64,000 nucleotides of DNA from Eledone cirrhosa (taxonomy: Eukaryota), in NCBI GenBank assembly GCA_964016885.1, contig OZ024743.1, positions 277,512,001-277,576,000 on the forward strand, in the 5' to 3' direction. The notes below the pieces were generated by a model, which was given only the letters and a program-made list of their open reading frames with translations, made no database searches and was not told the DNA's origin. Position numbers and translations under genes: made by a program. Positions 7,324-47,224 of this stretch are shown piece after piece (position 1 is the stretch's first letter; every line of letters starts with the position of its first letter).

Positions 7324-9231
7324 ATGTTAAACGAAGCGAACGAAAATAGTGGTGGGGGGGACAGCGGTAAGAGTTGTAAGCTCGCACGCTTTAGTCCCCA
7401 CTTCCTTCACAACTAACGTCATAGAGAAGGAAGGAAAACATAAAATAAAAACAGACGAATCTGTGGAGAAAAATGACGAAAACACAAATCTGGACATGGA
7501 TTCCAACAACGAAAAAAAAAATTTGAAAAATTGCATGACAATAATAATACCACAAACAAAGACACACACAACAAACACAAAAATAACATTTGAAAACAAC
7601 ATCATAACAGAAAGCAAAGCAGACGACAAAGTCAACAAGATTTCATTTGCACAAACAACAAAGAAATCTTTGACATATATACCTGAAAATATTTCAGATG
7701 TAGCACGAAGAATCACAGACGCCAAACAATACATAAGTGAAGGAGAGAATGGTATTTTATCGGTAAAAATGCCTCAAGAACTCACCAAAGACATTGAAAG
7801 TCGAACGGTCGTGTTCCGCACCATCTACAACACTTCAAAAAAACCTGAACAGCCAACTCAAGCAGATATCAAAACAGTACTCACAGAAGTACTTAATGAA
7901 ACCACTTTCATAAGAAAAGACAGACTGTATGGAAGCCTAGCAATTATTATGAAGAACGAATCGGCGGCAAAAAAATGTGCTTTGTCACCGATTCGCTCGA
8001 AAAATTTTACCTTTTATCCATCTTATATGGGTAAAAAACTCAACGCATATGGCTGGATGCAATGATGCCAGATGTTGACTACTGCTGGCTCATAGCTGGC
8101 TTCATCGATCCAGTGAATGACAACGTGATTTCCATTGGGAAAACCACAGGCAATGCGTTCAGTGGAACAGGTATAGAGCTGGTAGTGCAAATGAAGCCTG
8201 AACACATCACCCAAATACCCGACAGAATCCTATTAGAGGGCCACGGGTATATAAACATTAGCGTGGAGGGGAGAAGGCCGTCCTGTCATATCTGTGCAGG
8301 CAGAGGGCACCTGAAGGCCGCTTGTCCCCAACTCAACAAAAAGAAAACCCTGCTACCAACACCAGCTCCACCACCACCACCACAACAGATAAACAAACAA
8401 CAAAACTCAGTCCCACCCAACCCGTCCCTCAGTAAAACTACACCACCACCACAACACAAACAGTCACAACACATTGCCCCAAAACAAAATACAGGCCCAC
8501 CCAACCCCTCACTCAATAAAACAACACAACCACCGCAGACACAACACACAACACAGTCTAACATAGTGACATCCATCTCCCCCACAAAGAAAACCAACAC
8601 GGAAACATTACCAGCAAACATACCTCTTCCCTCCAACACTGAAGATAACCCAACGAATTCGGAGGAAGAAACGGAGTCCTTCAGACAGATTAAAAGGAAA
8701 AAAAGAAAACATGTGCAAAACACACAAGGCCAAACAACCCCCACCCAAATGTCAACACAATCCAACAAAACAGAAAACGCCCCTCCAGCAACAAACAAAA
8801 CCAAACCTGCCCCCCCCCTCTTCGAAACACTCACACCATCCGAAAAAAAAACATTACACTATACTTACATCAACAGAAACAATAATAAATTAAATGAACT
8901 CATATACAATAATCCTTCGGTACAAACCGAAGGTGTAAACTTTGTTTCTTCAGAAAACTACCCACATTTAAAATTAATAAAGATCCCAATGAACCTCTAC
9001 CAAAAACTAAAAAAGGATTTTAAGGAGGACGTAGGACCACCCTCTGTCAAACCCATAAACCGCGTCCTACTAAAAAGCTTTCCCCCTCCCCTTCCCCTCC
9101 CCAACACAACTCCAAACACCCCAACCCCACTACACACTGACGACCCCACACCACCACAAGACACCCCTTCACCCAACACCCCCGACCCCATGGAAGTCGT
9201 GCGACCCGAACCCCGGGAAGCGGAAAGGTAG
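7324..9231 (+). pseudogene. Tx1 copy A ORF1 (gag-like nucleic-acid-binding protein), frameshifted
   Basis: ORF pieces 7349-8065 and 8062-9231; CHICAGRGHLKAAC zinc knuckle; Pro/Thr-rich tail; probable ATG at 7324 with an indel shortly after it. Confidence 0.8.
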
Positions 9232-9264
9232 GTCTCTACACTCTCCTTTGGCTCTGCCGCCCAC

Positions 9265-12200
9265 ATGGATGTGTTAAGAGTAGGATGTTTGAATGCACGT
9301 GGCCTGGGCTCAACTTGGAAGCAAGCAAAGCTTCTAAATGACCTCAGGTCATGTGGTATAAATGTAATGGTTATCTGTGAGACTCGGATCAGCGTCGTGC
9401 GACAGCTGGCCCCTACCTTCGATGACTTTGAGGTGCATGCATCTCTCTGTCAACCTGGAGGTGGGAGTGGGGTTGTCGTACTGCTGCAAAAACACCTGGG
9501 TCTTGCCGTACAGGTTGTGCACTCGGACTCGGAGGGTCGTTTGTTGGTACTAGACGTTGGCAGTAGTGAAGGTGCGGCCTTAAGACTGGTCGCCGTCTAC
9601 TCCCCTTTCGGAGCTGAACGGCCCGACTTCTTCCAGCGTTTGGAGACTTTTCTGGGAACGTCGCGTTCCCTGCTTCTAGCGGGGGATTGGAATGACATCC
9701 TAGATGCACGTTGGGACTATGCAGGAGCATGTCCTAATAGAGGGAGGTGTAACAGCCTCAAGGGGTTACTCGACCGTTTTAACTTGGTCGATAGATATCG
9801 ACTAGATTTTCCAACTGTGCCTACCTGGACTTGGAGAAACCACAGTGGTCAATCTAGATCGTATTTAGATAGATTCTTAGTTAGAAGTAAGGATAGGGAC
9901 ATATTAAGCTGTCCAGAAATGCGCACGGTTGGCTACACGGATCACAAATTAGTGACTTGCGTAGTCAATCTCGAGAAAACACATAAACAGGGTCCCGGTT
10001 ACTGGAAACTTAATTTGTCTTTACCGGCAAAAGAGACTTACAGAAACCGGATTAGCAGATTAGTTAAGGAGAGGTTGACGGGTGCAATCGTCAACAACCG
10101 ATGGTGGGCATCTCTCAAAAGAGAGATTAGAACAGAATCAATAAGTTATAGCAAGATGTTAGCTGCCGATAGGAAAAGAAACGAGAAAGAATTAACAGGT
10201 AAATTAGAAGAGGCAATCAAGAGCGAAGATGTGGCCAGAGTGCTGGCATTGAGGACGGCCTTGAACCAGTTTTTCGATGCAAAGCACGAAGGCTACGTCA
10301 TTCGAAGTAAAATACGTGCTCTAGGTAATGAGGGGGCCAAAGCCGTTGGCTGGGCCCGCGTGACAGAAGCTAAGAGTGGAAATCGATCCACCATCCGGTC
10401 GTTGCAAGGCGAAGATGGACGGGTGATCCGGGAGCCTAAGAAGATGTGCGAGGCCTTTCAAAGGCACTTTGCCCGATTGTTCGGGGGAGGCGAGGGTCCG
10501 GGCGGGAGCGTGGATTTCGGTCCATACCTCGACGGCCTGCCGCGTCTCTCGAGCGAAGAGGCAGAGTCCTGCGAGGGACCAATCTCGGCTGATGAGATCG
10601 GAGATGCGCTGAGCCAATGCAGCAGACGCAAATCTCCAGGTCTCGATGGTATACCTTACGAACTTTATTTAGCAATGCCGGTCTTCTTCTCCGAACTCCT
10701 CGAAGCGGTCTACTGCAATTGGCAGCAGAACGGGAGAATTCCTTGTTCTGTAGCCAAGGGCGTAGTCACGCTGGTGAGGAAGGACGAGAACAAGGGAGAT
10801 AGTATAAATAATTTTCGGCCCATAACCCTGCTAAACACAGAGTTAAAGATGTTGGCCAAGGTGTTAGCAAAGAGGTTGGCGCTTGTCGTGGGTGGCCTGG
10901 TGGGAGATGCGCAGACATGTGCTATCCCATCCAGGTCCATTCACGATAACCTCCACCTCATGCGATACATCATAGAGAGGGTTGGCAACAAACCCGACTT
11001 CGGTGGGGCCCTGATCAACTTGGATCAGTCTAAGGCCTTCGATAGGGTCGACCATGGTTACCTGGATGCGGTGCTAGCGGCGGCTGGGTTCGGTCCTGTT
11101 TTCAGAGGCTGGATCACTGCCTTACATAGCAACCACATCTGTTCTAGGATCAAGGTGAACGGCTACCTTTCGAAGCCGTTCGAAATCCCACGATCCATTC
11201 GACAGGGGTGCCCTCTCTCCTCCCTTCTGTACGTATTGACTCTCGAGCCTTTACTGAGCAAGTTGGAGTTGTTGCAGGGTATCCCCCTGGAACCAGGATA
11301 GAGCAAAGCGGTGTCGGCCTACGCCGATGACGTAACAGTAATGGTATCGACCGACTCGGAGATCGAGGCGATCGGTACCTTACTGGAGGATTACGAAAGG
11401 TTGTCAGGAGCGAAACTGAATCGGGCTGCAACTCGGAACGTGGAGAGGCAGACCGATGCCTCCCGACGGTGTCGTCGGACACTGGACGGAGGGCCCGGTA
11501 AAGTTGCTTGGGGGTCTGGTTTGGACCGGACCTCCAGGTGGAAAAGAACTGGAACGAGGTTACGAACAAGGTGTTTGCACTAACCCAGAAATGGGCCAAG
11601 TGTGAGCTGGCCCTAAAAGACCGGGCGGAGGTGGCGAACATTTACATAGCGGCCGTCACTTACTACCGCCTGACTGTCGTGCCTTGCCCTAAGGAAACAC
11701 TCACCACCATGGAACGCATGCTCTTCCAATTTCTTTGGAAGAAGCGCCCTCCTATGGTGAGAAGATCCATCTGCTGCCAACAACCTTCGAAAGGAGGGCT
11801 GGGGATGCCGTGGTTGATGATGCGTAGGCACGCATTAAGGCTACGGCACCTACAGGTATTCCTCACTTGTCAACCGGTGTGGGCTCCGTTCGTGAAACGA
11901 GCCTTTCCGAGACTCGTCTCGCTCACCGAGCTGCAGTCCTGGGTCAAGCAAAGATCCGGAAAACTGGGAGGCTGGCACACTGAGTGTGCTCAGGCGCTCA
12001 GGGCTCTCTGGCAAGCGGGCCAGGCCGTCGGTGGAGAATCCACCTCATCATTCTATAGAGGGCTGGTGGCTAGCAGGGGCGATGACACCCTTGGAGAGTC
12101 GCTGGACATGGAAGAGGACGAACTGGCCAGCCTGTTTTGTAGGACTTTCGGCCCGGGACCAATGGACAACTTCCAGAAGTCACTAGCCTGGCAGTGCTAC

Positions 12201-12690
12201 CGGGGGGCTCTACCCGTTCGAGAGAGGCTCTACAGACACGGGCGCCCGGGCAGGGATCCCTCAAAAAAGATTTGCCCTAGATGCGTGCGTCACGAAGAAA
12301 CCGTTGCGCACGCATTGGTGCAATGTCCGGGCGTGGCTGATCTGTGGGGCTACGCCGAACGACTACTGTCGTGGGTGGCGCCGATTCAATTGACCGCCGA
12401 GTCCGTGATGACAATCAAACCGCCTCCCCTCTTCACAAAGGAAGCAAAGGCGGTTTTTCTGTGCGTAATAGCCATGTTGAAAGCATGTTGTTTGTTGGAC
12501 ACGATTGAAAGGTCTGAGGTCAGGCAACTTCCTCTCTGGCCATAGTCTGGTCTACTTCTTCCGATATCACTTCGGAAGAAAGATAAGAATGGAGAGAGAG
12601 GTGCTTGGCCACAGGCAGTTTTATGAAAGGTGGGTGATAGTGGCGAGAATGGCTCGTGTAAATGGGCCTTCTCTGTATACCATCCTGTAG
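9265..12690 (+). pseudogene. Tx1 copy A ORF2 (APE endonuclease + reverse transcriptase), disrupted
   Basis: LNARGL, ETR, GDWN, YLDR, TDH (APE); KSPGLDG, FRPITLLN, DQSKAFDRVDH, RQGCPLS, YADD (RT); CPRC..ETVAHALVQC; in-frame stop at 11299-11301 and frameshifts near 11420-11500 and 12490. Confidence 0.93.
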
Positions 12691-12910
12691 GTAAAGAAGT
12701 AAAGGAGAGGGGAGCACCTTCTCCGTGTGCTCCCCGGGCAAAGGATTGCACACTTTTTCGGGGGGGGGGGGTGCAACCCCCATCACGTCCCCTCCCTTTT
12801 GAGGTTATTTTCGATTATTTTCATTTCATACCTTTTTTACTCGATTGTATGTAAACTCCCCCTTTGTATTTGTCCCTTCTTTTTATGCCTTTATGGTAAA
12901 TAAAGAAATA

Positions 12911-13287: not shown

Positions 13288-13311
13288 TATCTATCTATTT
13301 ATTTATCTATC

Positions 13312-13983
13312 CTGCCAAAAGGACCTGTCCAAGATGCGAGCAGGACATCGAAACCGTTCTGCACGCAATTGTTCAGTGCCCAGGGGTGACTGTCCTGTGG
13401 AATTATGTCAAACAGCTACTGTCACGTGTGAGACGCATCCAATTGTCAGCCGAGTCCATCGTGAGGATCACCCCGCCGCCTTCAATTAATGAAGGAGCGG
13501 CGGTTTTCCTCTGTCTGGTGGCTATGGCGAAAGAGGTAATATGGTAGACGAGGTTAAAAGGACTGAGAGCAAACACCTTTCTCTCCGGACAACAACTCAT
13601 CCCCTTCTTTGAGTGCCACTTCAGAAGGAAGTTGAGAGTGGAGAGAGAGGTTCTACACCCCAGTAAATTCGCTGAAAGGTGGGTGAATGTGGCGAAAATG
13701 GCCTGAGTGAATGGGCCTTCTTTGTATATAAACCTGTAGGTTGAAGAGGATTAACAGAGGGAAGACAGGAACACCTACAAAACGTGTTCCTGGTGTTGAG
13801 GGTTGTTCTATCCATGGGGTGTAAAACAACGCCGCAGTAACGCCCCCTATTGGGGATTTCGATTGTTTTATTTTATATATAATTTATTGTTATTCATTAT
13901 TGTTAAAGATTTTATGTAAAAACCCCGCCGTCACGTCTTGTAATGTCCCATTTTTGTACGCCCCTGTGGCAAATAAAGAAATA
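13312..13983 (+). mobile_element. 5'-truncated Tx1-like copy (ORF2 C-terminus + 3'UTR)
   Basis: RTCPRCEQDIETVLHAIVQCP...LCLVAMAKEVIW homologous to ORF2 ends; ORF2 stop CCTGTAG ending 13739; tail GCAAATAAAGAAATATATCTGTC. Confidence 0.9.
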
Positions 13984-14682
13984 TATCTGTCTGTCCCTCC
14001 TATCTATCTATTCATCTACCTATCTACCAACCTACCTATTTGTCTGTCATCTGTCTGTCTGTGTGTCGCGTCTATATCTACTTAATTGAGTGATTATGTC
14101 TGTCTATTGCTGACTTAAACCAACAGTCAGCTGTTACTTACTCATACCTAGTGTGAAACACACATAACACAAACACACATAGAGACACACACAAACATAT
14201 TCGCTCACAAGTATACACACACACATTCACATACATACATGCGTACACACACACACACACACACACACAGACATACACACAAACACACAAATACACAAAA
14301 CACACACACACACACAACACACACACAGATACACACACATACACATGTTTTAGTTGAACATACCAAAAGATGACATAAAATGCTGTGAAAACAAATGCAT
14401 CAGGTTTAAAATGCGCAGATGGAGGTCATTCGGTGGGGAAATATAATCTTTGATCTCTACAAAGAAGGCGACCCACTGAATATAAGTTCGATCCCTTTCT
14501 AGAGCGGGATTCCTGGGATTCTTATACAAGCATCTGTATCAGTTTAATTAGTAATTTAATGATGTAAAAACATTGTTACTTTCAGGTGTAGCCATTCCGT
14601 CACCAAAGAATGTCTGACATTCATGAGTAGCTAGAGTCATCATCATTGCATTATTTCATAGACTCAAGACTTAATATATATG

Positions 14683-15270: not shown

Positions 15271-15773
15271 TATATATTGGTAAACGGAATAGAAAATGCT
15301 GACAAATTGTTCACAGTTGAAAAATGGTTTAATTAGGAATAAAAGAGTATTAGTGATTGTATGGGTTAGTATTCAGTTGTGGTTTTAAGTTTTTAAGTTT
15401 TTACCGGTTGCGCATTTCTAAATGCTTTTCAAAAATAATTTTGAGATAGAGTGTCCGTGCTGTTTGCTCTGATCTGATTAGTTTTGGGAATTCTACCTGT
15501 TTTTATGTTAAAAAAGTGGCTCCAGCGTTATTTTTGTGTTGCAAAAATGCTTGTGGTCAAAACAATTTTGATTGGTCGGTAGAGGTCATGTGAATGTAAA
15601 AAGTTGATTTTGCGCCAAGACTGTTTTTATGTTAAAATGTTAAAAAAGTGGCTCCAGCAAAAATTCTTGGTCAAAACAATTTTGATTGGTCGGTAGAGGT
15701 CATGTGGATAACAAATTGGTTTTGCGCCAAGATTGAGAAATGACTCTTTCACAACAAATATGTGTGTGTGTGT

Positions 15774-16299: not shown

Positions 16300-17368
16300 T
16301 ACATACATATATATGCACACATATTTTTTTGTATTGCACCATAGAGCATGTGTGTTTACGTGTGTCATTGTGTTTATATGTGGGTAGAGATGTGTGCTGA
16401 TATAGGTATGTATGTTGACGTGTGTATGTTGTGGGTTCGTCTTAGGGAGAAGTGTTTAGACGGGGTCCGTATTTGTTAATGAAGTAAGATTCCTTGCTGA
16501 TGCGCTGGGTGTGGGTGGCATTATCTTTAAATTTGTAGAGGGGAAAGATTCTGAAGTTGGGATGATTTTGGGCGGCACAGGTATCAATGTGTTCACTCAG
16601 TGGTATTTTCCTGTATTCCCGTATTTTAATTTGGGATCTATGGACAGTCATGCGTTGGCGGAGGCTGTTTTTGGTCTGGCCTATGTATTGTTCTCGACAA
16701 CCTGAACAAGTTAATACATATATTAGATTTTCCGATGCACATGTAAAATTGTGTTTTACTATAAAACGTTGTCCATCTTTGAAATAGAATTCCGAACCCT
16801 CTATTAGGTTGATGCAAATGCCACAGTTGGGTCTATCGCATTTTTTTACTGTGGGTTTCGTTGTTGTGGTTGGCAGTACTTTGGCATGTGTTAAGATGTT
16901 TTTCATTGACTTGGATTGTCTTTTGCTCTTTATGATATCGTGTGTTCGTAGAATCAAAATTGTTTTGACCAAGAATTTTTGCTGGAGCCACTTTTTTAAC
17001 ATTTTAACATAAAAACAGGCTTGGCGCAAAATCAACTTTTTACATTCACATGACCTCTACCGACCAATCAAAATTGTTTTGATCACAAGCATTTTTGCAA
17101 CACAAAAATAACGCTGGAGCCACTTTTTTAACATAAAAACAGGTAGAATTCCCAAAACTAATCAGATCAGAGCAAATAGCACGGACACTCTATCTCAAAA
17201 TTATCTTTGAAAAGCATTTAGAAATGCGCAACCGGTAAAAACTTAAAAACTTAAACCCACAACTGAATACTAACCCATACAATCACTAATACTCTTTTAT
17301 TCCTAATTAAACCATTTTTCAACTGTGAACAATTTGTCAGCATTTTCTATTCCGTTTACCAATATATA
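15271..17368 (-). mobile_element. Penelope-like element (Neptune-type), 5'-truncated, with an inverted terminal segment
   Basis: Minus-strand GIY-YIG ORF end; about 415-bp inverted repeat 15271-15687 / 16952-17368. Confidence 0.8.
16442..16951 (-). pseudogene. GIY-YIG endonuclease domain of a Penelope-like element
   Basis: KCDRPNCGIC Cys motif, then NLIYVLTCSGCREQYIGQTKNSLRQRMTVHRSQI...KESYFINKYGPRLN. Confidence 0.88.
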
Positions 17369-17387
17369 TATATATATATATATAATA

Positions 17388-17501
17388 ATAATAATTCTTT
17401 CTACTTTAAACACAAGGCCAGCAATGACCCAGTGCATTACTGGTACTTTATTTTATCGACCCCGTAAGGATGAAAGGCAAAGTCAACGTCGGCGGGATTT
17501 G
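17388..17501 (-). mobile_element. SINE 3' fragment
   Basis: CCCGTAAGGATGAAAGGCAAAGT core in reverse; (TAA)n adjacent to the tail. Confidence 0.8.
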
Positions 17502-17518
17502 ATATATATATATATATG

Positions 17519-33020: not shown

Positions 33021-33205
33021 TGTTTCTACTTTTGGCACAAGGCCAGCAATTATCCCAGTGCATTACTCGTACTTTATTTTATCGACCCCGTAAGGATGAA
33101 AGGCAAAGTTAACCTCGGCGTAATTTGAACTCAGACCGTAAAGGGCCGTAACTCTGTGCTACAAAGCATGGCGCCCGACCCTCTACTGATACTGCCAATC
33201 CGCCG
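33021..33205 (-). mobile_element. Full SINE inserted in the R4-like endonuclease, with TSD
   Basis: Complete head, core and tail in reverse; flanking direct repeat TTAATAATAAT at about 33010-33020 and 33206-33216. Confidence 0.9.
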
Positions 33206-34083: not shown

Positions 34084-34629
34084 TTAAATGTACGTTTTCA
34101 GTTCTTAATTCTTTCATATACTTTCCTTCCTATTTAATCTATTTTAGTGTATTTTTCTTTGTTTGTGGAGTGGAGTTTCTTTTGTTGTTGTTTTTTTGTG
34201 ATCTCTTACTAACACCATCATTCAGTCATTGGTAGTCTCTCTCTGTATGTCTGTAAGCCTATCGTAGTTGTTTTGCATGACAGTTCCATTTGCATCAGCT
34301 CTCTTCCTTCTACTTGGAAAATCTATGTGATTTACATCTGCGTTAGGGTGATACATTTTGTTGGCTGTAAGATGTTTTCGAGGTTTTTGTGTACATTCTT
34401 TTAAGATCAGCTAAATTCGAATTAATGACAGTATAACTTATTGTACCACTGGTAGAGCTAAGGTGTTTATAGCGTCGAAACGCGTTTTTGGATTTAGTTC
34501 AGTTTTAAGGATCGACCTTACTTTTCTGTAGTATTCAACCCGTATTCTAGTCTTCATTTGACTGTTTAATAACATCACATTATTGTTATTATTATTATTA
34601 CTATTATTATTATTGTTGTTGTGGTTGTT

Positions 34630-34846
34630 AGGGCGCTTGATTGGCAGGATCGGTAGTGGGTCGGACAACATGTTTCGTAGTATAGAGTTACGGCCCTTTA
34701 CGTTCTGGATTCAAATCCCGCCATAGTTAGCTTTGCCTTTCATCCTTACGGATTCGATAAAGCACCAGTAACACACTGGGGTCGATTTAATTGACTTCCC
34801 CTTCCCCTTCAAATTGCTGGCCTTGTGCGTAAAGTAGAACCAATTA
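34630..34846 (+). mobile_element. SINE flanked by (TTA)n
   Basis: Full head, core and tail; TTA-rich arrays at 34580-34615 and 34844-34872. Confidence 0.88.
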
Positions 34847-34872
34847 TTATTATTATTATTGTTATTATTATT

Positions 34873-35130
34873 GTTCTTTGAGTCTCAGTCATTGATGTTA
34901 GTTAACTGGAAAGTTTGTTGAAATGAATATCAAGCCACTACCTGCAGCCTCAGATATTCAGGACGTATCGGAGGGTTCTTGCTGTTCCCAGCAAGCATGC
35001 CTTTGAAGCGTTCCAAAAAGCGTGGCGGGGCCAATTTTCTTTAACCATCCCTGGAAACTTTTTGAGTTAGTACCTAGTGCGTCTATGACAATCGGGACCA
35101 CTTTGACTTCATGGCAGTTCCAAATCCTTT
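34873..35130 (-). mobile_element. R4/Dong-like element 3' end with (TAA)n tail
   Basis: Minus-strand RIWNCHEVKVVPIVIDALG... and (frameshifted) ACLLGTARTLRYVLNI*, then short UTR and AATAATAAT. Confidence 0.75.
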
Positions 35131-35368
35131 TATTATTATTATTATTATTATTGAATGCTATGGTTGACGGAGGCTCGGCTCTGTAAGGTACTGTAAATTT
35201 TGAACGCTATAACAATTGTAAATTGTTTAAAACTTAGACCAACTTGTAGATAAAAACACCCTCCTCCTCGTGAGAGGGGTCTTTCTGCCCGTTATTTGGC
35301 CCTTCGGGGTTAAATAACTGCTTATTGGGGTTTTGTGCCCAATATTTATTTTAAACAAAAAAAACAAC

Positions 35369-37474
35369 ATGGCTACGAAAAAGAATTTTCATAGGTCACT
35401 CCCACTCATTCCGTCTTCTTCTTCCTCAATCATCACTACAGCAGAGAGAAGATTGTCTCTCTCCCTCCCTTCTTTAAATGTGTCTCTCTCCCTCCCTTCT
35501 CTTTCGCAAGCGACGAAAGAAAAGAAAAGTCTCGTGCAAAGCGTGCAAGGTTTCTCCACGACGACGACGACAGCGACGAAACAGGTGTGCGGGAAATACG
35601 AAAACCCAGTTCATTCGTCTGACGTCAGGAATAATAGCAGTAGCAGCCGTAATAACAACAGCAACAGTGACAATGAAAACAACAGTAGCAGCCGCAACAG
35701 CATCACCAGCAGCATAAACAACAACAGCATTAGCAGCAGCAACACCAACAACAACCACAGCAACAGCGGCGAAGGCAGTAGTCGTAGTACCTGCAGCAAC
35801 AACAAAAGTAACAGCAGCTCTGACGACAACAACAACAACAGCAGCAAAGAAAAACCAATCTCATTTGCAGGTATTGCGAAAAACTTGGAAACAATCCTCA
35901 TAACAAATGAGGAATTAGAGGAAGCGAAGAAGATGGTGACAAAGAATGGACACCGAGCAATGTGCAAGGCAGCGGAAACTTTTTTCGAAACCCAACAGCA
36001 CTGTACGGTCACGTACCGTACAGTAAGTACAAAATCCCGTAGGGTGGAAAGAGCCACAGAGGCCCAAATACAAAAAGCCTTGGGGTCTGTGTGGCAGCGG
36101 AAAACGCACATCACCCGAGGCAAAAAATATGCCACCGTAGACGTACTTTTTGCCACACCCCAGGAGGCAAAGGCCCAATCCGTAGTGACCCTAAGGAGCG
36201 AGGAAATGGTGTTGGTGCCATCCTACTGCGGGCAAAAAATTGTGAGGGTCAAACTGACCCACGTCCCCCCCCCCGGAATGGCCCCTTCTTGGCTGGCCGC
36301 GTCTGTCCTCGTCGGAATCGAGGACAAAACAACTGTACTGCAAGTACAGAAAAAAGTAAGAGAAGATTGGGTCGGCACCTCCATTGAGATGCTAATCCAA
36401 ACCAACCAGGAGTGCATCGAAGCTATCCCGGATGTGATAGACTTCGATAACGGCACTCAACTGCCCATAAGTGTTGAGGGCAAACGCCCGAAATGCTTTC
36501 GCTGTGGATCGAAGACTCACCTCAGGGCCTTCTGCAACGAGAAGACCCTGAGAAAGGAGAAAACCCCCCTCCTTCCGAATCCGGCTCCACGGCTACCAGC
36601 AACAGGACAAGCGGCAACCAGGAACGATAGGTCCGTGGCGCCCATACCCACGCCACGGAAATCAAAAACAGCAGCAGCAGTGGAAATATTAACAACAACA
36701 ACAGCAATACCAAATGCAGCTGCAACAGAGACTCCAGTGCAAACATCACCAACAACAACAAGTGAAAGAGTGGAGCTGGTACCCCTCCCCGACCTCACAG
36801 AATCAGACATGGAGTGTGAGGTGGGAGAGGGATGGCAAAAGGTCGTAAGAAGGCAGAAACGCAGAAGCAGCGCATCGTCGCCTTTGAAAAGGGAGGAAAG
36901 AAATGAGAAAAGGGTAAAGTCTACTGCAAAGAGACCCACAGCAGCAACACCACCAACACCATCACCACCCACACTAGCACCACCATCACCACCGGCGACA
37001 ACCCCACCGCCAACAACACCTTCAACACCACCACCACAAGCACCAACATCGCAAACACAACAACAAAACACACACACCCAGCAACAACGACAAGAAAATA
37101 GCAGAACCACACCCCACCCCCAGAAAAACAAATGCACGGCAATAAATACACACAACAAGAAACTAATGACTTACATAATTGAACACACAGACATTTCACA
37201 ACAAGACTACATAATACCAGCACCAATCAAAACGCCAACTAACATAAGACTGCTAAAAATAGCACAGAAACAATACACAAACATTAAAACGAAATTCCCC
37301 AACGCAGTTGGTGATTTCAGGGACCTAGGAGGAACCATCAATCGAAGAGTATATTCAGACATTCTCTTAGAAGAGCCGACGACCAGCCGAAGGGACGATT
37401 CAACGGTCCATTCACCAGACGATCAAGTGAAAAGGGATGTAAAAACCATCCTTCCTCTACCAAAAGTACGGTAA
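35369..37474 (+). CDS. Tx1 copy B ORF1 protein (uninterrupted, about 701 aa)
   Basis: ATG after A-rich leader; Ser/Asn-rich N-terminus; SFAGIAK; VEGKRPKCFRCGSKTHLRAFC CCHC knuckle; GWQKVVRR; Pro/Thr-rich tail. Confidence 0.85.
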   Translation: MATKKNFHRSLPLIPSSSSSIITTAERRLSLSLPSLNVSLSLPSLSQATKEKKSLVQSVQGFSTTTTTATKQVCGKYENPVHSSDVRNNSSSSRNNNSNSDNENNSSSRNSITSSINNNSISSSNTNNNHSNSGEGSSRSTCSNNKSNSSSDDNNNNSSKEKPISFAGIAKNLETILITNEELEEAKKMVTKNGHRAMCKAAETFFETQQHCTVTYRTVSTKSRRVERATEAQIQKALGSVWQRKTHITRGKKYATVDVLFATPQEAKAQSVVTLRSEEMVLVPSYCGQKIVRVKLTHVPPPGMAPSWLAASVLVGIEDKTTVLQVQKKVREDWVGTSIEMLIQTNQECIEAIPDVIDFDNGTQLPISVEGKRPKCFRCGSKTHLRAFCNEKTLRKEKTPLLPNPAPRLPATGQAATRNDRSVAPIPTPRKSKTAAAVEILTTTTAIPNAAATETPVQTSPTTTSERVELVPLPDLTESDMECEVGEGWQKVVRRQKRRSSASSPLKREERNEKRVKSTAKRPTAATPPTPSPPTLAPPSPPATTPPPTTPSTPPPQAPTSQTQQQNTHTQQQRQENSRTTPHPQKNKCTAINTHNKKLMTYIIEHTDISQQDYIIPAPIKTPTNIRLLKIAQKQYTNIKTKFPNAVGDFRDLGGTINRRVYSDILLEEPTTSRRDDSTVHSPDDQVKRDVKTILPLPKVR

Positions 37475-37509
37475 GTGGTCTTTCCCATCTTTTCCACTCT
37501 ATTTTAAAC

Positions 37510-40500
37510 ATGATCTCACTCAGAATAGGCAGCATAAATGCGCGTGGCTTGGGGTCGTCATGGAAGCAGGGTCACCTGCTCAACGACCTCAGGTCACTAA
37601 ACATAGATGTAGTGGCCATCAGCGAGACCAGAATCTCCGAAGCACGGGCCTTCGCACCGATCTTCGGCGGCTACGATGTGTACGCATCTCCCAGCCGTCC
37701 TGGATCGGGGGGAGGAGTTGGTGTGCTTTTTCGGAGAGGTTTGGATCTCGCCATACGGGCCATCTTCCTGGACCCAGAGGGTAAGCTGGTGGTGCTGGAC
37801 GTGACCAGCGGAGACGGGCAAGCTTTCAGGCTAGTGGCCGTCTATGCCCCGACAGGAGCATAGATTTCTTCCGGCGTCTGGAGACCTTTCTTGGAACGTC
37901 CCGCTCTTTAGTGTTAGTGGGCGACTGGAACGGGATCTTAGATGCACGCTGGGACTGTGTGGGATTAGTGGATAGGGGTGGAGGGTGCAAGAGCCTCACC
38001 AACCTGCTCAGGCGTTTTGAACTGTCTGACAGGTACCGATTGGATTTCCCGAATGTGCCAATGTGGACTTGGACAAATCGCATAGGGTCATCCAGATCAT
38101 ATCTAGATAGAGTATTTTGTAGGGAAATAGATAGGTCTAGCATAGGCTGTCCACAATTCAAGATAGTCAGCTACACGGACCACAAATTCGTGATCTGTGT
38201 ACTTGACTTAGATAGGCTTCATAGACGAGGACCCGGCTACTGGAAGCTAAACGCGTCCTTACCAGCGCGCAAGGCCTACAGAGACCGGATTAGCGAACTA
38301 GTTAAGCGGGCGTTGACGGGGGCCATCGTCAACAACAAGTGGTGGTTTGCTCTGAAAAGAGCGATTAGAATAGAATCGATTAGGTTTAGTAAGGCTTTAG
38401 CAATAGAGAAAAATAGAGCAGAGGGAGAACTAGTTAGAAAATTAGACGAGGCGCTTAGCAAAGGCATTGCGACCGACGTGCTTGCGGCGAAATTGGCCCT
38501 TGACCAATTCTTCAATGCAAAGCACGAAGGCTGCGTTGTCAGAGGAAGGGTGCGTGCTCTCGAAACGAGGGGACGAAAGCCGTTCAATGGGCCCGAGTGG
38601 CGGAGGCGCGTCGTGGCAACAAAGCCACGATCCGGTCTTTGGTGGACCACGACGGGCGCATGCTACTCGATCCCGGGCAAATGTGTGAAGCTTTTCAGCG
38701 ACACTTCGCTCAGCTGTTCGGGGGCAGCGGTGGGCCGGGTAGAGGGATGGACTTTAGTGTCTACCTCGACGGACTGCCGCGGCTCTCGGCCACTGAGGCG
38801 AAGTGTTGCGAAAAGCCGATAACAGCCGCTGAAGTAAGGGAGGCAATGACTGGCTGCACAAGGGGTAAATCGCCTGGTTTGGATGGTCTGCCCTATGAAC
38901 TTTACGTACAGATGCCAGACTTGTTCGGAGGCCTCTTGGCGGACGTCTACTGCAACTGGCAACAGAACGGGAGAATTCCCAGTTCTGTGAGCCGAGGAGC
39001 GGTGGCACTGCTGAGAAAGGATCCGAACAAGGGGGATAACATAGATAATTTCCGGCCCATAACTCTGCTAAACACAGAGTTCAAGATTTTGGCTAAGGTG
39101 CTAGCAAAGAGGTTGGCGCTTGTCGTTGGTGGTCTGGTGGGAGAGGCGCAGACATGCGCCATTCCCGACAGATCCATCCACGACAACCTCCACCTCATGC
39201 GATACATCATAGAGAGGGTAGCTAAGGAACCTGGCACGGGTGGGTCCTTGATCAATTTAGATCAGTCGAAAGCTTTCGATAGGGTCGACCATCGTTACCT
39301 AGCGGCAGTCCTGAGGGCGGCTGGTTTTGGGCCCGTCTTCAGCGGCTGGATCGCTGCCATGCACAGCGACATCTGCTCTGTGGTGAGAGTGAACGGTCAC
39401 CTGCGCTCGGTCCGCCAAGGATGTCCCCTCTCGTCCCTCTTGTACGTATTGACTCTCGAGCCATTACTGCACAAACTGGAGACGTTGAGAGGAGTCCCGC
39501 GCGAACTAGGATGCGGAAGATCCGTGTCAGCATAGTGGTGTCACGATGTCACCGTAGTGGTGTCGAACGCCAAACACATCGATGCGATCGGCACTACACT
39601 AAGAGAATACGAAGCGGTGACAGGAGCAATGATCAACCAGGAAAAGTCAGTGGGCCTGCAGCTCGGCACCTGGAGAGGCAGGTCCATGCCGTCCAACAGC
39701 GTCGTCGGACGCTGGACGGACGGACCGGTTAAATTGCTAGGGGTCTGGTTCGGTCCGGACCTCCAGACGGACAAAAACTGGGACGAGGTGACGAGCAGGG
39801 TGGCTTCTCTCACCCAGAAATGGGCGGAGAGGAAGCTATCCCTGAAAGGTCGAGCGGAGGTGGCTAACGCGTACATCGCGTCTGTCATCTGCTACCGCCT
39901 GACCGTCGTACCTTGTCCTAAGCCTCGCCTGACTGCGCTGGAGCGTTTGCTCTTTCGCTTTTTGTGGAAGGGACGTGCTCCGACGGTCAGGCGGTCCATC
40001 TGTTGTCAACACCCGCTACGTGGAGGGCTGGGCATTCCGTGGCTGATGATGCGCAGGCACGCGCTCAGGCTACGACATCTCCACCTCTTCCTCGACGGTG
40101 ATCAGGTGTGGTCGCCGTTTGCTAGACACGTATTTCCCCAGCTCGTTTCCTTGACGGAGCTGCAGTCCTGGGTCACGCGAAGACCGAGAGGGAGCGCCTG
40201 GAGACTGGAATGTCTTCAGGCGCTCACAGCCCTCGACCAATCGGGCAATGTGATCGGTGGAAACTCCACCTCGGCGTTCTATAGAGGATTAGTGGAGGGG
40301 AAGAGCGACGACGTACTTGGGGAAACTCTAGTCGTCGACGAAAATCAACTAGCCAATCTCTTCGGAAGAACTTTCGGGCCAGGGCCTATGGACAACTTCC
40401 AGAAATCTCTGGCCTGGCAGTGCTACCGAGGAGCCTTGCCAGTTCGGGATAAACTCTACAGGCATGGAGGTGCCGTCAGCCGGGCATGTCCGAGATGCGC

Positions 40501-40903
40501 GCAGGGCGACGAAACCGTCCTGCACGCACTCGTCCAGTGTCCGAAAATTGCTGACTTGTGGGTTTATGTCGAACACCTGCTGTCGCGTTTAGGACGGATC
40601 CGGCTATCATCTGAGTCCATCGTGAGGATTTCCCCGCCCTCCTCCTTTAGCCGGGAAGGGCAGGCAGTTTTTATCTGTCTGGTGGCCATGGCGAAAGAGA
40701 TAGTATGGTGGACACGTTTGAAAGGGCTGAAGACGAGCACTTACCTCTTCGGTGATGCTCTGATTGACTTTTTCAAATTTCATTTGAAAAGGAATATCAG
40801 AGTAGAGAGGGAAGTGCTCTCTTCCCAGCATTTTGTTGAAAGATGGGTGAGAGAAGCAAGAATGGCCCGAGTGAATGGGCCTACTCTGAGTATATATCTG
40901 TAA
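37510..40903 (+). pseudogene. Tx1 copy B ORF2 (APE + RT), disrupted
   Basis: Pieces 37510-37863, 37911-38570, 38597-39535, 39557-40903; small deletions near 37860 and 39403; YADD motif destroyed near 39533. Confidence 0.93.
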
Positions 40904-41386
40904 ATTAAAGGTGGAAAACTGGGAGAGGGCACTTGCCTTGGTGGTCAGGGTCATTGTGGCTTTTTACTGGGCTTTCTCCACAAATGTCCCTCCGAAGTCT
41001 CCCCCCTATTGGGGAATTTTTCATTGTTATTTTTTGTTACATCCTCTGTTTTTGTTTTTTTACACGCAGAAATGCCTATTTGTACCGTCCTGCATTGTCC
41101 TGCACTGTCCTTAATGTCTACTTTATGTAAACCCTTGTGGTTAATAAAGAAATCATTATTATTATTATTATTATTGACGAAAGTGGATGTACGTTTTTTG
41201 AAGCTCCGTGAGTAAGCAATTTTTTGAGGATTAATTGTGGAGAATTGTTTATTTTTTTGTACCGCTGAAGCATTATAAGACATTCATTTGTATCCTGTGA
41301 AGGAATAACTCATAATATTTGGGCCTTTTGGCCCAAATATTTGAACTTTATTTTGGAAAAATAATAATTTTTTTTCTCAAAAAAAC

Positions 41387-43249
41387 ATGGCGGAGCCACG
41401 CTCCCTAAAGGCGGGTCTGCTGTCGTGCAACGGCGACTTGAGCGTTGAGAGGAGAGGTGGGGCGAGGAGCGCCACCAGCACCAACGGGCCGAGCGGCGCG
41501 GAAGGTGGTAACAGCGACAACACCAACACCAACAAGCCGAACAGCGCAGAAGGTGGTAATAGCGAGAGCACCAACAAAACGAACAGCACAGAGAGTAATA
41601 GTAGCGACAGCAGCAGCACCAACAAGGCCAACAGCACAGAGGGTAACCACGACACAGGGGAGAACAACAACAGCAATAGCAGCAGCAACACCAACAAGAA
41701 CAACAACAGTGACAACACCAACAAGAACACCTTCGCTGCTGTGGCAGCGGCTAAAAGGAGACCATGCTACAGCATCGACTTAACCAACAGAGAGGAAAAG
41801 TTGGCCCAGGCCTGGAAAATCATAAATCAAGAGCAGACCTGGGCAAACTTAACTGTCCCGGCAGAAGCCATTGAGGCAGTGGAAAAAAGAACGGTGCATT
41901 TCAGATGCATCTCAGTAGAGACAAAGAGGGCAGCGATAATCGCCCAAGCTGATGTAGAAGCCACACTGAAATACATCAGAGAGGACACAGACTTCATAGA
42001 GAGGGGCAGGCAATACGGCACCGTTTCGGTGCTGTTCAAGTCTGAAGCCCTCGCTGTGAAGCATTCAATGACCCCTTGCAAAACCAGCAAGGTCATAATG
42101 TACCCCTCCCACATGGGAAAACGAATAGCACGTGTGCGCATTCCCAGGATTCCACCAGGACTTGATATGTGGTGGCTCCTGGGTTGCGTAATCGTGGAAG
42201 GAACGGATACAGTCCCGGTAGAGGCAACGAGAACTGCCAGGGACGACTGGTCCGGGGTTGATCTGGAGATACTGCCCCAAATCAGACCCGAAAACGTAAA
42301 AGCAATCCCGGACCACATCCACCTCCAAAACGGGAGGGTGTTGCATATAATGACTGAGGGCAAAAGGCCGCATTGTTTCCTTTGTGGGGAAACGACACAC
42401 TTGCGAGCCTTCTGCCCTCAACTGCCGAAAAGCGCAAGTGGTCGAAAGATTCCACTGCTGGCGACGCCGGGACAAGGACCACCAGCAACACCGTCAACAA
42501 TGGAACCACCAAAATTGCACACCCGGGGGGGAAACGAGGAAAGCTCTCCCATTCCCCTTCCCCCCCAAAATACACACACGAACAAGAACATAAACACTCA
42601 CTCAGACACAAACACGCTCACAGCCACAGACCCCTCATCCTCCAGCAGTGAAGATGAGGGAAAACCAAAGTCCCCCAAAATACAAAAAACAAAACACAAA
42701 AAAAAAAGAAATCCACAAAAAAAATACACACACCACCCACACAAACATTTTCCCCACAGCATCACCAACACAACCACCAAAATCCCCCAAACGCAAACAA
42801 GCTAAACAGACACAAGAACAAATAGACACACAAACATCAGAAACTACAGACACCCCACCCACAACAAACGCAGACACAATAGAAACAACACTAACAAAGC
42901 TATCACCACCACAATCACACGAACAAAAAAAACCCGAGCAACAAAACATTAAAAACTTCGTGCTTGCCAGAAGGGCCAACAAGGAATTGATGGCCCATGT
43001 AGCACGAAGCACAAACATTGAAAAAGAGGGGAAACATTTGAAGCGAGCACATTTCGCGTACCAGATAATTTGCTTCTGATGCGAATGTCGCTCGCTTCAT
43101 AAAAAGAAATTCGAAAGAGCTTTCCTCGGGATGTGGGAACCCCGAACGTAAAACCCACTTCAAGACTATTAAAGGGGTTCCCAAAAGAAACCCCACAAAC
43201 TATGGAGGTCGAACCACCCGACCTTCACAAGACCCCGGAAGGTAAGTAA
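41387..43249 (+). pseudogene. Tx1 copy C ORF1, frameshifted in its 3' third
   Basis: TFAAVAA; TEGKRPHCFLCGETTHLRAFC knuckle; last frame FPRDVGTPNVKPTSRLLKGFP...MEVEPPDLHKTPEGK* is homologous to the copy A C-terminus. Confidence 0.8.
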
Positions 43250-43278
43250 ACCTTTCCTCTCCCATTCATCCTGCCAGC

Positions 43279-46200
43279 ATGGCCATAAAAGTAGGAAGTT
43301 TAAATGTTCGTGGCCTGGGGTCGCCCTGGAAGCAAGGTCACTTGCTCAACGACCTCAGGTCACTAGGAATGGATGTAATAGCCATCAGCGAGACCAGAAT
43401 TTCCGACACACGCGCACTGGCGCCGATTTTCGACGATTATCAGATCTTTGCATCTGTTAGTCGGCCGGGAATGGGAGGTGGAGTGGCTGTGCTGTTTAGG
43501 AAATGTCTGGATCTCGAGGTAAGGTCAATCTTCCGGGATCCTGACGGAAAGTTGGTGGTCCTGGACGTGAGCAATAGCGAAGGTGGTGCCTTTAGACTGG
43601 TGGCCGTCTACGCCCCTACTGGGGCCGGTCGGCGGGACTTCTTTAGGCGCCTGGAAAACTTTCTGCTTACGTCTCGCCCTTTACTGTTAATAGGGGATTG
43701 GAATGGCATCTTAGAAGCACGCTGGGATTGTGTGGGAGTATCTGATAGGAGCGGGGGGTGCAAAAGCCTCAAGTACCTGATCAGCCAGTTTCAACTGTCT
43801 GACAGGTACCGACTAGATTTCCCTAATGCGCTAGTATGGACCTGGACCAATCGCATAGGGTCATCTAGATCGTACATAGATAGGATTTTCATTAGGAAAA
43901 GAGATAGAAATAGTGTAAGATGTCCACATTTTAAAACGGTTGCCTATTCAGATCACAAGCTTGTGATCTGTATGGTCGACCTAGATAAGACACGTAGGTT
44001 AGGACCTAGCTACTGGAAGCTAAACATGTCGTTTCCGGCACGTAAAGCTTACAGGGACCGGGTCAACAACTTAGTTAAACAAAAGTTGACAGAGGGGGTT
44101 GTCAACAACAGGTGGTGGGGGGCTCTCAAAAGAGAGATTAGAGCAACCTCGATAGGATTTAGCAAAGAAGTAGCAATAGAGAAAAATAGAAAGGAGGAGG
44201 GGCTGATAGCTAAGTTAGACGAGGCTATTTGTAGTGGCATTGCAACAGACGTGCTAGCGGCGAGAATGGCACTAGACCATTTCTTCAATGCGAAACACGA
44301 AGGTTGCATTGTAAGAGCTAAGGCGCGTGCTCTGAGGAACGAGGGAACCAAAGCTGCCCGATGGGCTCGCTTTGCAGAGACGCAGCGTGGAAATAAAACC
44401 GCAATTCGGTCTTTGACGGATCGAGATGGACACGAACTGAGCGATTCCAAGCAGATGTGTGAGGCCTCTCGCCAGCACTTTGCTCGATTGTTCGGGAGGA
44501 TGGGTGAGTCGGAGACGGCGGCGGACTTCAGTCCCTACCTCGACGGCTTGCCACGCCTCTCGACGGCCGACGCTGAGCGCTGCGAAGAGCCGATAACATC
44601 AGTCGAAATTCAGGACGCCCTTGTCGGCTGCTCGAGTCGCAAGTCACCCGGTTTGGATGGTCTGCCCTACGAGCTTTACGTAAATATGCCAGACTTGTTC
44701 TCCGATCTCCTCGAAGCGCTCTACTGCAACTGGCAGCAGAACGGGAGCATTCCCAGTTCTGTGAGCCGTGGCGTAGTGACGCTGATAAGGAAAGACGAGA
44801 ACAAGAGGGACACACTAGATAATTTCAGGCCCATAACCCTGCTCAACACAGAGTTTAAGATTTTGGCCAAGGTGTTAGCGAAAAGGTTGGCGCTTGTCGT
44901 CAAAGATTTGGTAGGGGAGGCGCAAACTTGCGCAATCCCGACCAGGTCCATACACGACAACCTCCACCTCATGCGATACATCATAGAGAGGGTTGGGTGC
45001 AAACCTGGCTTCGGTGGGGCTCTGATCAATTTAGATCAATCGAAAGCATTCGATAGGGTCGACCATCGGTACTTGGAGGCTGTCCTCGAGGCGGCTGGCT
45101 TCGGCCCCGTCTTCAGAAGCTGGATCGCTGCAATGTACAGCGGCATCTGCTCGGTGGTCAAAGCTAATGGCCACCTCTCGGAACCGTTTCAGATCTCTCG
45201 ATCGGTCCGTCAAGGGTGCCCTCTCTCCTCACTTCTGTACGTATTGACTCTTGAGCCTCTACTGCGGAAGCTGGAGTTGTTGCAGGGCATCCCGCTCGAA
45301 CCGGGACGTAGAAAGGCTGCGTCCGCTTATGCGGACGACATCACCGTGATGGTGTCGGACACCTTGGAAATCGAGGTGATCCGCACCCATTTGGAGGAAT
45401 ATGAAAGGTTGGCGGGAGCAAAACTTAACCCGGAAAAGTCGGTGGGCTTGCAGCTCGGCACCTGGAGAGGCAAGTCCATGCCGTCCAACAGCGTCGTTGG
45501 GCGCTGGACAGACGGACCGGTAAAGTTGCTCGGGGTTTGGTTCGGACCAGACCTCCAGGTGGATAAGAATTGGGACGAGGTGACGAGCAGGATAGCCAAC
45601 CTCACCCAGAAATGGGCTGAGAGAAAGCTATCACTGAAAGGGCGGGCGGAGGTGGCGAACGCGTACATCGCGTCCGTCATCTACTACCGCCTGACCGTCG
45701 TGCCTTGCCCCCGTCCACGCCTCGCCAATTTGGAACGGCTCCTTTTCAAATTTTTGTGGAGGGGACGGGTCCCGTTGGTGAGGCGGTCCATCTGCTGCCA
45801 GCACCCTCTTCGTGGAGGGCTGGGCATGCCGTGGCTAATGATGCGCAGACATGCGCTGAGGCTGCGACATCTCCAGATATTTTGCCTAAACGGTGAACAG
45901 GTGTGGTCGCCGTTTGTTAGACGGGCCTTTCCGCAGCTCATCTCTTTGACTGAGCTGCAGTCCTGGGTCAAGAAGAGACCGAGACTGGGCGACTGGCATC
46001 TGGAATGTTGCCAGGCGCTCACTGCACTCTGCAAGGTGGGCAATGCGGTCAGTGGAACTTCCACTCAAGATTTCTATAGAGGATTAGTGGAGGGCAAGTA
46101 CGATGACGTACTAGGAGAGGCTCTAGGCGTCAACGAAGTAGAACTGACCAGTATGTTCCGGAGGACTTTCGAGCCAGGGACGATGGATAACTTCCAGAAA

Positions 46201-46699
46201 TCCCTCGCTTGGCAGTGCTACCGGGGGGCGCTGCCGGTTCGGGATAAACTCTACAGGCACGGAAGTGCTGTCAGACGAACCTGCCCGAGATGCGCGCAGA
46301 GCGACGAAACCGTTCTGCACGCACTCTTCCAGTGTCCGTGCATTGCTGACTTGTGGGGTTATGTCGAACAGCTATTGTCGCGTGTAGAACGGATCCGGCT
46401 ATCGTCCGAGTCCATAGTGAAGATTGACCCGCCCGCCTTCTTTTGGTCAGGAAGGGCAGGCAATTTTCCTCTGCCTGGTGGCAGTAGCGAAAGAGGTTGC
46501 ATGGTGGACCAGGTTGAAAGGACTGAAGACAGACACTTTTCTCTTCGGCCAATCCCTCATCAACTTCTTCAAGTTTCACTTGGAAAGGAAGGTGAGGGTG
46601 GAGAGTGAAGTGCTGCCCCCCAGTACATTTACTGAAAGGTAGGTGAATGTGGCGAGAATGGCCCGCGTGAGTGGGCCTACTCTGATCATGCGCCTGTAG
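43279..46699 (+). pseudogene. Tx1 copy C ORF2 (APE + RT), nearly intact
   Basis: About 1050 uninterrupted codons with all APE and RT motifs including YADD; one frameshift near 46440 and a TGG>TAG at 46640. Confidence 0.93.
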
Positions 46700-47224
46700 G
46701 CTGGTGAATTCGAGAAGGAGAGGGGTGCCCTTCCCGGGTGCCCTAGGAGCGTCGGGTGGCTCAGGACTGGTGGGGTGCTTGAGTCAACCCTGGGTGGTGA
46801 TCCCTCTTATTGGGGAACTTTCATTGTTGTATTTTTATTGTTATTTTGTTTTTTTGTTATTTATACTTACTCGATCTCTATGTAAACCCCCACTGTCCCT
46901 GTCTATTGTGTTGTCCCCTATATGTCGGCCCTTGTGGCCAATAAATGAAATCATTATTATTATTATTATTTAATTATATCGATGATAGTTCAGTAAATAG
47001 ATAATAATCTGAGACAAACAAAGAAAAATACAATAAAATAAATTAAACATGAAATGTAAAGCTTAAGAAAGTTTTGAATGCAATAAAAGAATCTTTTGAA
47101 TGTGGCATTAGTTAATCAGAGAGACTATATTGTCTTTGTTGAAGGGTGGGCTGTTAGGAATTGGTGTGACATTAAAACACCGATGACAAGAAGAACAAAA
47201 AAAAAAATCCAATTGAGAACATGG

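What the first reader, a model, noticed from the sequence alone, without database searches (positions are those of the whole stretch)
9222..46710. Tx1 retrotransposons in which the whole ORF2 looks like a removable intron
Seen: the three full-length copies have very divergent ORF1s, yet each has a 5' splice-donor consensus at the ORF1 stop. Copy A has AAG|GTAGGT (9228), B has ACG|GTAAGT (37471) and C has AAG|GTAAGT (43242). In three of four ORF2 ends the stop codon is an acceptor-like CCTGTAG|G (A 12690, truncated copy 13739, C 46699). Joining donor to acceptor gives GAA AGG TAA in A, which is exactly the unspliced ORF1 end (ER*). In C it gives GAA GGC TGG TGA (EGW* versus unspliced EGK*, stop at the same codon) even though the donor phase differs. 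The truncated copy has GTTGA right after its acceptor. Copy B is the exception: its ORF2 ends CTGTAA, and the nearby AAG|G at 40910 would give a long extension. Inference: splicing makes an ORF1-only mRNA that keeps the 3' tail, which could set the ORF1p:ORF2p ratio or act as a host silencing switch. This is analogous to the spliced gag RNA of copia, and a possible route to HAL1-like ORF1-only elements. I am not aware of this being described for Tx1 elements.
Basis: partly seen in the sequence, partly recalled or inferred. Interest (0 to 1): 0.85.

Follow-up and report, generated by a model that had tools for sequence, protein, structure and literature searches.

The report
LINE enzyme gene flanked like intron
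A large family of jumping genes in a likely octopus genome keeps a splice-start signal at the end of its first gene, which would let the cell cut the whole second (enzyme) gene out of the RNA like an intron, but such a cut RNA is predicted, not seen.

Summary
The motifs are at the stated coordinates. The elements are young, microsatellite-targeting L1/Tx1-type LINEs; about 9,800 ORF2 starts lie in this 3-Gb, probably octopod, genome. The donor is the solid part: across 21 subfamilies -1G, +1G, +2T, +6T are 21/21 and +5G 20/21, in three reading phases, while only 16 of 104 fourfold ORF2 sites are invariant. The acceptor is weaker: it scores well among the element's AGs but is no more conserved than Leu plus stop predicts, and B, the commonest family, lacks it (it has a derived acceptor further down its 3'UTR). 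The 'seamless ORF1 end' holds in only 10 of 21 subfamilies (p=0.11); the truncated copy's stop is out of frame for its own family. No spliced retrocopy was found against 340 and 1,427 unspliced copies, so the HAL1 route is unsupported. No run on record as RNA was available. One Octopus sinensis RefSeq ORF1 model ends like a spliced product (lead only). Verdict: conserved U1-type site; ORF2-as-intron splicing about even odds, unproven.

The parts
7081..12910 (+). Element A, degraded full-length LINE between (TATC)n tracts
7331..9231 (+). A ORF1 (two overlapping pieces, 7331-8065 and 8035-9231), CCHC knuckle, ends ER*
9225..9233 (+). A donor-like site, cut 9227|9228, phase 2, overlapping the ORF1 stop
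9265..12690 (+). A ORF2 (APE endonuclease, RT, zf-RVT), broken; its stop codon is the candidate acceptor at 12690
   Evidence: top-scoring AG of 256 in the family representative
12691..12910 (+). A 3'UTR (candidate exon 2): purine-rich start, hairpins, T-rich tract, poly(A) signal at 12899
13309..13985 (+). 5'-truncated copy of family T; ORF2 stop at 13739, poly(A) signal 13972
34873..41152 (+). Element B, full-length, in (ATT)n, head-to-tail with C
35369..37474 (+). B ORF1, ends VR*
37468..37476 (+). B donor-like site, cut 37470|37471, phase 2
37510..40903 (+). B ORF2, frameshifted, ends in TAA (no acceptor at the stop)
41046..41069 (+). B alternative acceptor candidate in the 3'UTR: T-rich tract then CAG, cut 41069|41070; would add 19 residues then stop before the poly(A) signal at 41143
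   Evidence: present in B, B' and E, absent at the homologous place in D and the other families
41177..46970 (+). Element C, young family (about 98-99% identical copies, 340 with exact donor context, tandem arrays of period about 5840), in (ATT)n
41387..43249 (+). C ORF1 (frameshifted here; 636 aa in intact copies), ends EGK*
43239..43247 (+). C donor-like site, cut 43241|43242, phase 1, one codon and a half before the ORF1 stop
43250..43278 (+). pyrimidine-rich inter-ORF spacer (69-82% C+T in 14 families)
43279..46699 (+). C ORF2 (1139 aa when intact); stop codon is the candidate acceptor at 46699
   Evidence: rank 2 of 264 AGs
46660..46677 (+). small conserved hairpin in the last codons of ORF2, inside the would-be intron
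   Evidence: no change on both sides in its six pairs; also explained by the protein
46700..46970 (+). C 3'UTR (candidate exon 2), poly(A) signal at 46940, (ATT)n tail

Best explanation
These LINEs keep a conserved 5' splice-site sequence at the end of ORF1 that likely binds U1 and would, in part of the transcripts, be spliced to an acceptor at or behind the ORF2 stop, giving a predicted ORF1-only mRNA that is not copied back into the genome. Shown: the site, its conservation over three reading phases, a well-scoring AG at the ORF2 stop, and the lack of spliced genomic copies. Inferred: U1 binding, the splice itself, and its use. The likely benefit is more ORF1 protein per ORF2 protein from a short mRNA whose stop lies at or after the last junction (so it should escape nonsense-mediated decay; established knowledge, untested here), while unspliced RNA serves as ORF2 template and genome. 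The exact ORF1 C-terminus is not preserved in half of the subfamilies, so a short extension must be tolerated. The element, not the host, appears to maintain the site.
For: Donor invariance in 21 subfamilies (-1G, +1G, +2T, +6T 21/21; +5G 20/21; +3 and +4 vary only A to G) against 16 of 104 invariant fourfold and 9 of 34 twofold sites, with flanking positions variable. It persists in phase 2 (15 subfamilies), phase 1 (5) and phase 0 (A4, where ORF1 reads 12 codons past it). It is the only or the best match to the donor consensus in each of 14 elements scanned. The ORF2-terminal AG ranks 1st-16th of 246-269 AGs in 10 full-length representatives and 7th of 120 in E on a crude score of my own, and is followed by a purine-rich stretch (57-83%). 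The lineage that lost that AG (B, B') carries a derived T-rich CAG acceptor in its 3'UTR (one event). All 5 phase-1 subfamilies stop within one codon after the join. ORF1 proteins from other sources end in residues compatible with the donor (P0133 Argonauta hians, P0136); P0134, a RefSeq model of Octopus sinensis closest to B/D, runs five residues past the donor position with a tail like the D-family 3'UTR read-out and unlike any spacer read-out; a lead only, its DNA was not seen.
Against: No spliced RNA was observed. Acceptor conservation is not above background and is largely forced by Leu plus stop. Own-frame stop within 3 codons in 10 of 21 versus 12 of 42 other frames, p=0.11; within 1 codon 9 of 21 versus 8 of 42, p=0.046, post hoc and with related tips. 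Only 4 of 15 phase-2 subfamilies stop at once; A5 and E would have no stop before the poly(A) signal. B/B', about 40 of the first 100 listed ORF2 starts, have no AG at the stop. Zero spliced retrocopies although such an RNA would keep the whole 3'UTR; this needs very strict cis preference or a rare transcript. The ORF1 C-terminal peptide is itself partly conserved, so some donor positions may be protein-constrained.
Confidence: 0.5

Rival explanations
1. The site binds U1 snRNP but is seldom spliced; it protects or promotes the full-length transcript (suppression of premature polyadenylation, transcription or export), and the AG at the ORF2 end is only a stop codon.
For: Donor conserved, acceptor not above background; donor kept in B without the terminal AG; no spliced retrocopies; 12 of 14 representatives have AATAAA or ATTAAA within 500 nt upstream of or about 1 kb around the donor region in ORF1 or early ORF2 at non-conserved places. 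U1 has this second role in Arabidopsis EVD (PMC5580714, passages).
Against: Cryptic poly(A) hexamers are not positionally conserved and ORF2 is poor in them; a consensus donor followed by a good acceptor is normally used (established knowledge); the P0134 tail and B's second acceptor point to splicing.
Confidence: 0.22
2. The motif is not a splice signal: it is an inherited stop-codon context (Arg codon, stop, a second stop in another frame) and part of a termination/re-initiation signal with the pyrimidine spacer and the conserved context of the ORF2 start codon.
For: Variation at +2 to +4 equals the three stop codons in phase-2 families; frame changes are simple slips onto a second stop; spacer of 30-52 nt is always pyrimidine-rich; frame match after the join is not significant.
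Against: +1, +5 and +6 are free of protein or stop constraint in most families yet nearly invariant; the motif survives inside coding sequence in A4, where the ORF1 stop moved 36 nt away; none of the distant two-ORF relatives inspected has it at the ORF1 stop (24 of 70 metagenomic loci read).
Confidence: 0.18
3. The donor is used, but with another acceptor: a 47-59 nt mini-intron fusing ORF1 to ORF2, a cryptic site inside ORF2, or an exon of the next tandem copy or of the host.
For: AGs in both phases lie 10-18 nt behind the ORF2 start codon in most families; tandem arrays are common.
Against: A fused RNA would keep ORF2 and be copied in cis, yet the patterns, which would catch it, found none against 340 and 1,427 unspliced copies; 22 internal deletion rows examined show microhomology, not GT-AG ends.
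Confidence: 0.1

Closest known systems
Ty1/copia spliced GAG RNA (Arabidopsis EVD shGAG; Drosophila copia ~3-kb intron), PMC5580714, passages read
   Same: A donor at the end of the structural-protein ORF, splicing predicted to give a structural-protein-only mRNA, unspliced RNA as genome; U1 has a double role.
   Different: Those are LTR elements with one polyprotein ORF, where splicing creates the stop and (in EVD) is tied to early polyadenylation; here ORF1 already has its stop, the element is a bicistronic LINE, and no spliced RNA is shown.
Human L1 spliced RNAs and SpIREs, PMC5860796, passages read
   Same: Functional splice sites inside an L1-group LINE RNA.
   Different: SpIREs remove 5'UTR or 5'UTR/ORF1 sequence, keep ORF2, are found as genomic copies (about 1.8% for the commonest class) and are dead ends; here the would-be intron is ORF2, the donor is conserved as if useful, and no spliced copy was found.
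HAL1 (half-L1), PMC5753468, passages read
   Same: ORF1-only product with the element's ends.
   Different: HAL1 are genomic non-autonomous families; no precisely ORF2-less copy was found here.
Tx1-clade sequence-specific LINEs; L1-Tx1 families of Octopus vulgaris (13 recently active families, 421 insertions; PMC13282606, first third of the text read)
   Same: Two ORFs, APE-RT-zinc-finger ORF2, CCHC ORF1, insertion into microsatellites with tandem arrays.
   Different: No splice signal or spliced RNA is mentioned in what I read; identity with those families was not tested.

Membership tests
L1/Tx1-group LINE | ORF2 with APE endonuclease, RT and C-terminal zinc-binding domain | tested here: met
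   Pfam PF03372, PF00078, PF13966; best solved relative human L1 ORF2p, E 2.6e-57
L1/Tx1-group LINE | separate ORF1 with CCHC zinc knuckle | tested here: met
   CCHC motif visible in A, B, C; no Pfam hit; homologs named CCHC-type by UniRef
Tx1 clade | insertion into a specific target such as a microsatellite | tested here: met
   5' flank is (ATT)n in 24 of 24 C and 6 of 6 B ends listed, (TATC)n-like in 6 of 6 A ends; that this marks Tx1 is recalled
Tx1 clade | RT tree placement with named Tx1 elements rather than L1 | not tested
   no named Tx1 reference set was at hand
copia-type spliced structural-protein mRNA | conserved donor at the end of the structural ORF | tested here: met
copia-type spliced structural-protein mRNA | conserved acceptor beyond coding need | tested here: inconclusive
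   scores well but not above background, absent in B/B'
copia-type spliced structural-protein mRNA | spliced RNA exists and is translated | not testable with these tools
   no holder on record as RNA
HAL1 / SpIRE | genomic copies lacking ORF2 precisely at the splice sites | tested here: not met
   families D, A4, A6-A8, T, T3, C2, E not tested

The most novel reading that the evidence does not exclude
Octopod Tx1-type LINEs are built as two-exon genes whose single intron is the whole ORF2: the element uses the host spliceosome to make an ORF1-only mRNA, has kept the donor through three reading phases, re-evolved an acceptor when the old one was lost, and excludes the spliced RNA from retrotransposition.
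Probability: 0.4. Interest if true: 0.8.

Novelty: new variant of a known kind. Interest (0 to 1): 0.58.

Why it matters
How bicistronic LINEs set the large excess of ORF1 protein over ORF2 protein is usually put down to inefficient re-initiation (recalled). A LINE clade that splices ORF2 out would use the copia solution in a non-LTR element, would give host splicing factors or piRNA pathways a direct handle on mobility, and would put about 10,000 consensus donors into this genome. The test is cheap: public octopus RNA-seq and the exon structure of one RefSeq model. Even if no splicing occurs, a U1-type site conserved at a LINE ORF1 stop is unexplained. Nine literature searches (open-access library only) listed nothing describing this for Tx1 or other LINEs.

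Tried and rejected
No RNA holder listed. Logan contigs of four runs of unrecorded kind were laid on C and one of them, X4, on B plus C: no joint at the donors or acceptors among the rows shown (15 of 1,979; 9), and single X4 contigs run unbroken across both donors and the C acceptor; contigs show presence, not absence, and X4 is not on record as RNA, so this is not counted as evidence. Prediction that family T has a phase-1 donor: failed. Covariation of donor phase and exon-2 stop: not significant. Internal deletions as splice products: microhomology ends; two deletions that start at the donor (L182; L237) end at 3-nt microhomologies, not at an AG. Word-based searches for ORF1 homologs found none; the HMMER search did. 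A family close to P0134 is not in this genome (best 38%), so its tail could not be checked in DNA. Distant metagenomic relatives lack the donor; the 37-45% relatives have no DNA context available. Earlier scan notes: nothing. The spliced-copy test for family D and the unspliced count for family B remain open.
Full report
Observation. The window holds three full-length but damaged LINEs (A 7081-12910, B 34873-41152, C 41177-46970; B and C head-to-tail through an (ATT)n tract) and a 5'-truncated copy T. ORF2 has APE, RT and zf-RVT domains and is closest to human L1 ORF2p among solved structures. The ORF1s are 28-39% identical between deep lineages in their conserved core. Named ORF1 homologs come from Argonauta and three Octopus species (one repetitive plant zinc-knuckle protein also scored), so the 3-Gb host is probably an octopod; I went no further.

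Family context. A degenerate ORF2-start motif has 9,807 matches, control 3. Family C has 340 copies with the exact donor context, intact members with 636-aa ORF1 and 1139-aa ORF2 and tandem arrays. Insertions are in (ATT)n for B and C and (TATC)n for A. From 100 fetched stretches I chose one representative for each of 21 subfamilies with both ORF2 ends; several rest on a single copy (A6, E, A7, A8, T3), and family D2, with no 5' end found, was left out. Their ORF2 tree splits into A-group, T-like, C-group and D/E/B lineages, with fourfold-site identity of 0.48-0.69 between lineages.

The donor is under selection. Over 21 subfamilies -1G, +1G, +2T and +6T are invariant, +5G is 20/21, -2A 19/21, and +3 and +4 change only from A to G; neighbouring positions vary freely; only 16 of 104 fourfold and 9 of 34 twofold ORF2 sites are invariant over the 20 subfamilies with a whole ORF2. 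The motif sits in phase 2 in 15 subfamilies, in phase 1 in C, C2, C3, D and T2a, and in phase 0 in A4, whose ORF1 stop lies 12 codons further on. Three positions free of protein or stop constraint in most families (+1, +5, +6) give a joint chance near 0.01 on these backgrounds (my product of fractions). It is the best donor match in each of 14 elements scanned. In 24 of 70 distant metagenomic loci that I read, the ORF1 stop has no such motif. Caveat: the last ORF1 residues are partly conserved too.

The acceptor is plausible but not independently conserved. The terminal AG ranks 1st-16th of about 250-270 AGs on a crude pyrimidine score (T's representative has a point change and was not ranked) and is followed by purine-rich sequence, but Leu plus TAG and a following G are no more conserved than background sites. 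B and B', about 40 of the first 100 listed ORF2 starts, end in TAA; their nearby AG ranks about 60th and gives 66-92 extra residues. They and E have instead a T-rich tract ending in CAG about 165 nt into the 3'UTR, where D and the other families have no AG; joining there adds 19 residues and stops before the poly(A) signal. This is one evolutionary event and only suggestive.

The seamless C-terminus is not general. The joined frame stops within three codons in 10 of 21 subfamilies (A, A2, A4, A7, A8, T2a, C, C2, C3, D) and runs 18-105 codons in 11; other frames stop as early in 12 of 42 cases, p=0.11; with a one-codon limit p=0.046, post hoc, tips related. All five phase-1 donors match, but only 4 of 15 phase-2 donors.

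No spliced copies in the genome. Patterns made of the ORF1 end followed by anything unlike the unspliced continuation gave: C 0 against 340; A2/A3/A5 1 hit, a one-base insertion, against 1,427; A 0 (no control count); C plus C3 2 hits, one-base deletions; B/B' 1 and 7 hits, being small indels, one microhomology deletion and two unrelated matches (no control count); T2a 11 hits, none the spliced form. A spliced RNA would need to be copied for only about 300 nt to be caught, and 8,713 ORF2 ends match one A/T-type pattern alone, so spliced RNA contributes next to nothing to insertions. This removes support for the HAL1 route and for an ORF1-ORF2 fusing mini-intron; it is compatible with splicing only under strong cis preference (known for human L1, PMC5860796, passages) or loss of a cis signal inside ORF2, such as the small hairpin in its last codons (speculative).

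RNA. No run on record as RNA was offered; the contig results are listed under Tried and rejected and not weighed. An indirect lead: among full-length ORF1 homologs, P0133 (Argonauta hians) ends EGKS and P0136 ends QGK, both compatible with an unspliced donor, whereas P0134 (Octopus sinensis RefSeq XP_036364761.1, nearest to B and D) continues after the matching GK with KWKQN, which cannot be read from an intact donor plus pyrimidine spacer and resembles the D 3'UTR read-out ERWKN. The resemblance was noticed after the fact, the lineage is absent from this genome and the DNA was not seen.

Mechanism. Most likely (0.5) the site recruits U1 and part of the RNA is spliced to an acceptor at or behind the ORF2 stop, giving an ORF1-only mRNA that tolerates a variable tail and is not retrotransposed. 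Rivals are U1 binding without much splicing (0.22), a stop and re-initiation context with no splicing role (0.18) and other acceptors (0.1).

Known systems and novelty. It would work like the spliced GAG RNA of Ty1/copia elements (PMC5580714, passages), is not a SpIRE (PMC5860796, passages) or HAL1 (PMC5753468, passages), and belongs to the L1/Tx1 group, with Tx1 membership resting on domain layout and target specificity, not on a tree. PMC13282606 (first third of the text) lists L1-Tx1 families in Octopus vulgaris without mention of splicing; its supplements were not read. Nine searches of the open library (listings and abstract starts only, apart from the four papers named) showed no report of ORF2 as an intron in a LINE; subscription papers and Repbase entries are not covered. 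Verdict: new variant of a known kind, interest 0.58.

Noticed in passing
L194, L195, L204, L209 (family A4): ORF2 has no ATG at the usual start (ATA instead) in 4 of 4 copies and ORF1 reads through the spacer to a stop overlapping that position; ORF2 translation must start differently in this family.
   Followed up: partly
L192, L193, L202, L211 versus L199, L203, L208 (family T2): A one-base difference just before the donor splits the family into phase-1 and phase-2 variants that share one 3' end; only the phase-1 variant would stop at once after splicing. A natural pair for testing.
   Followed up: partly
window 42092-43227: In run X4 (kind not on record) two contigs over the 3' half of C ORF1 have depth about 195 against about 21 on either side; the first begins right after an AG at 42090-42091 and the second ends 14 nt before the donor. 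Contig depth cannot rank parts; unexplained.
   Followed up: partly
window 12700-12790, 46720-46790 and homologous 3'UTRs: Two stem-loops in the 3'UTR are kept across families with changes on both sides in 9 of 15 pairs; candidates for the RT recognition signal.
   Followed up: partly
G000:C1:423365592-423418125 and other places: Head-to-tail arrays of at least ten family-C copies, and mixed arrays of different families, apparently from repeated insertion into the microsatellite tail of the previous copy.
   Followed up: partly
window 12691, L083, L088, L195, L206: In A-group and C3 families the bases right after the ORF2 stop themselves resemble a donor (AG then GT then purines), as at a recursive-splicing point.
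   Followed up: no
window 15271-15687 and 16952-17368: A 417-bp inverted repeat pair, 98.8% identical, about 1.3 kb apart, possibly the ends of a young DNA transposon.
   Followed up: no
window 2169-2706, 17382-17502, 20578-20902, 27773-27933, 33011-34084, 34630-34856: Many copies of a 90-230 bp dispersed repeat on both strands, probably a SINE.
   Followed up: no
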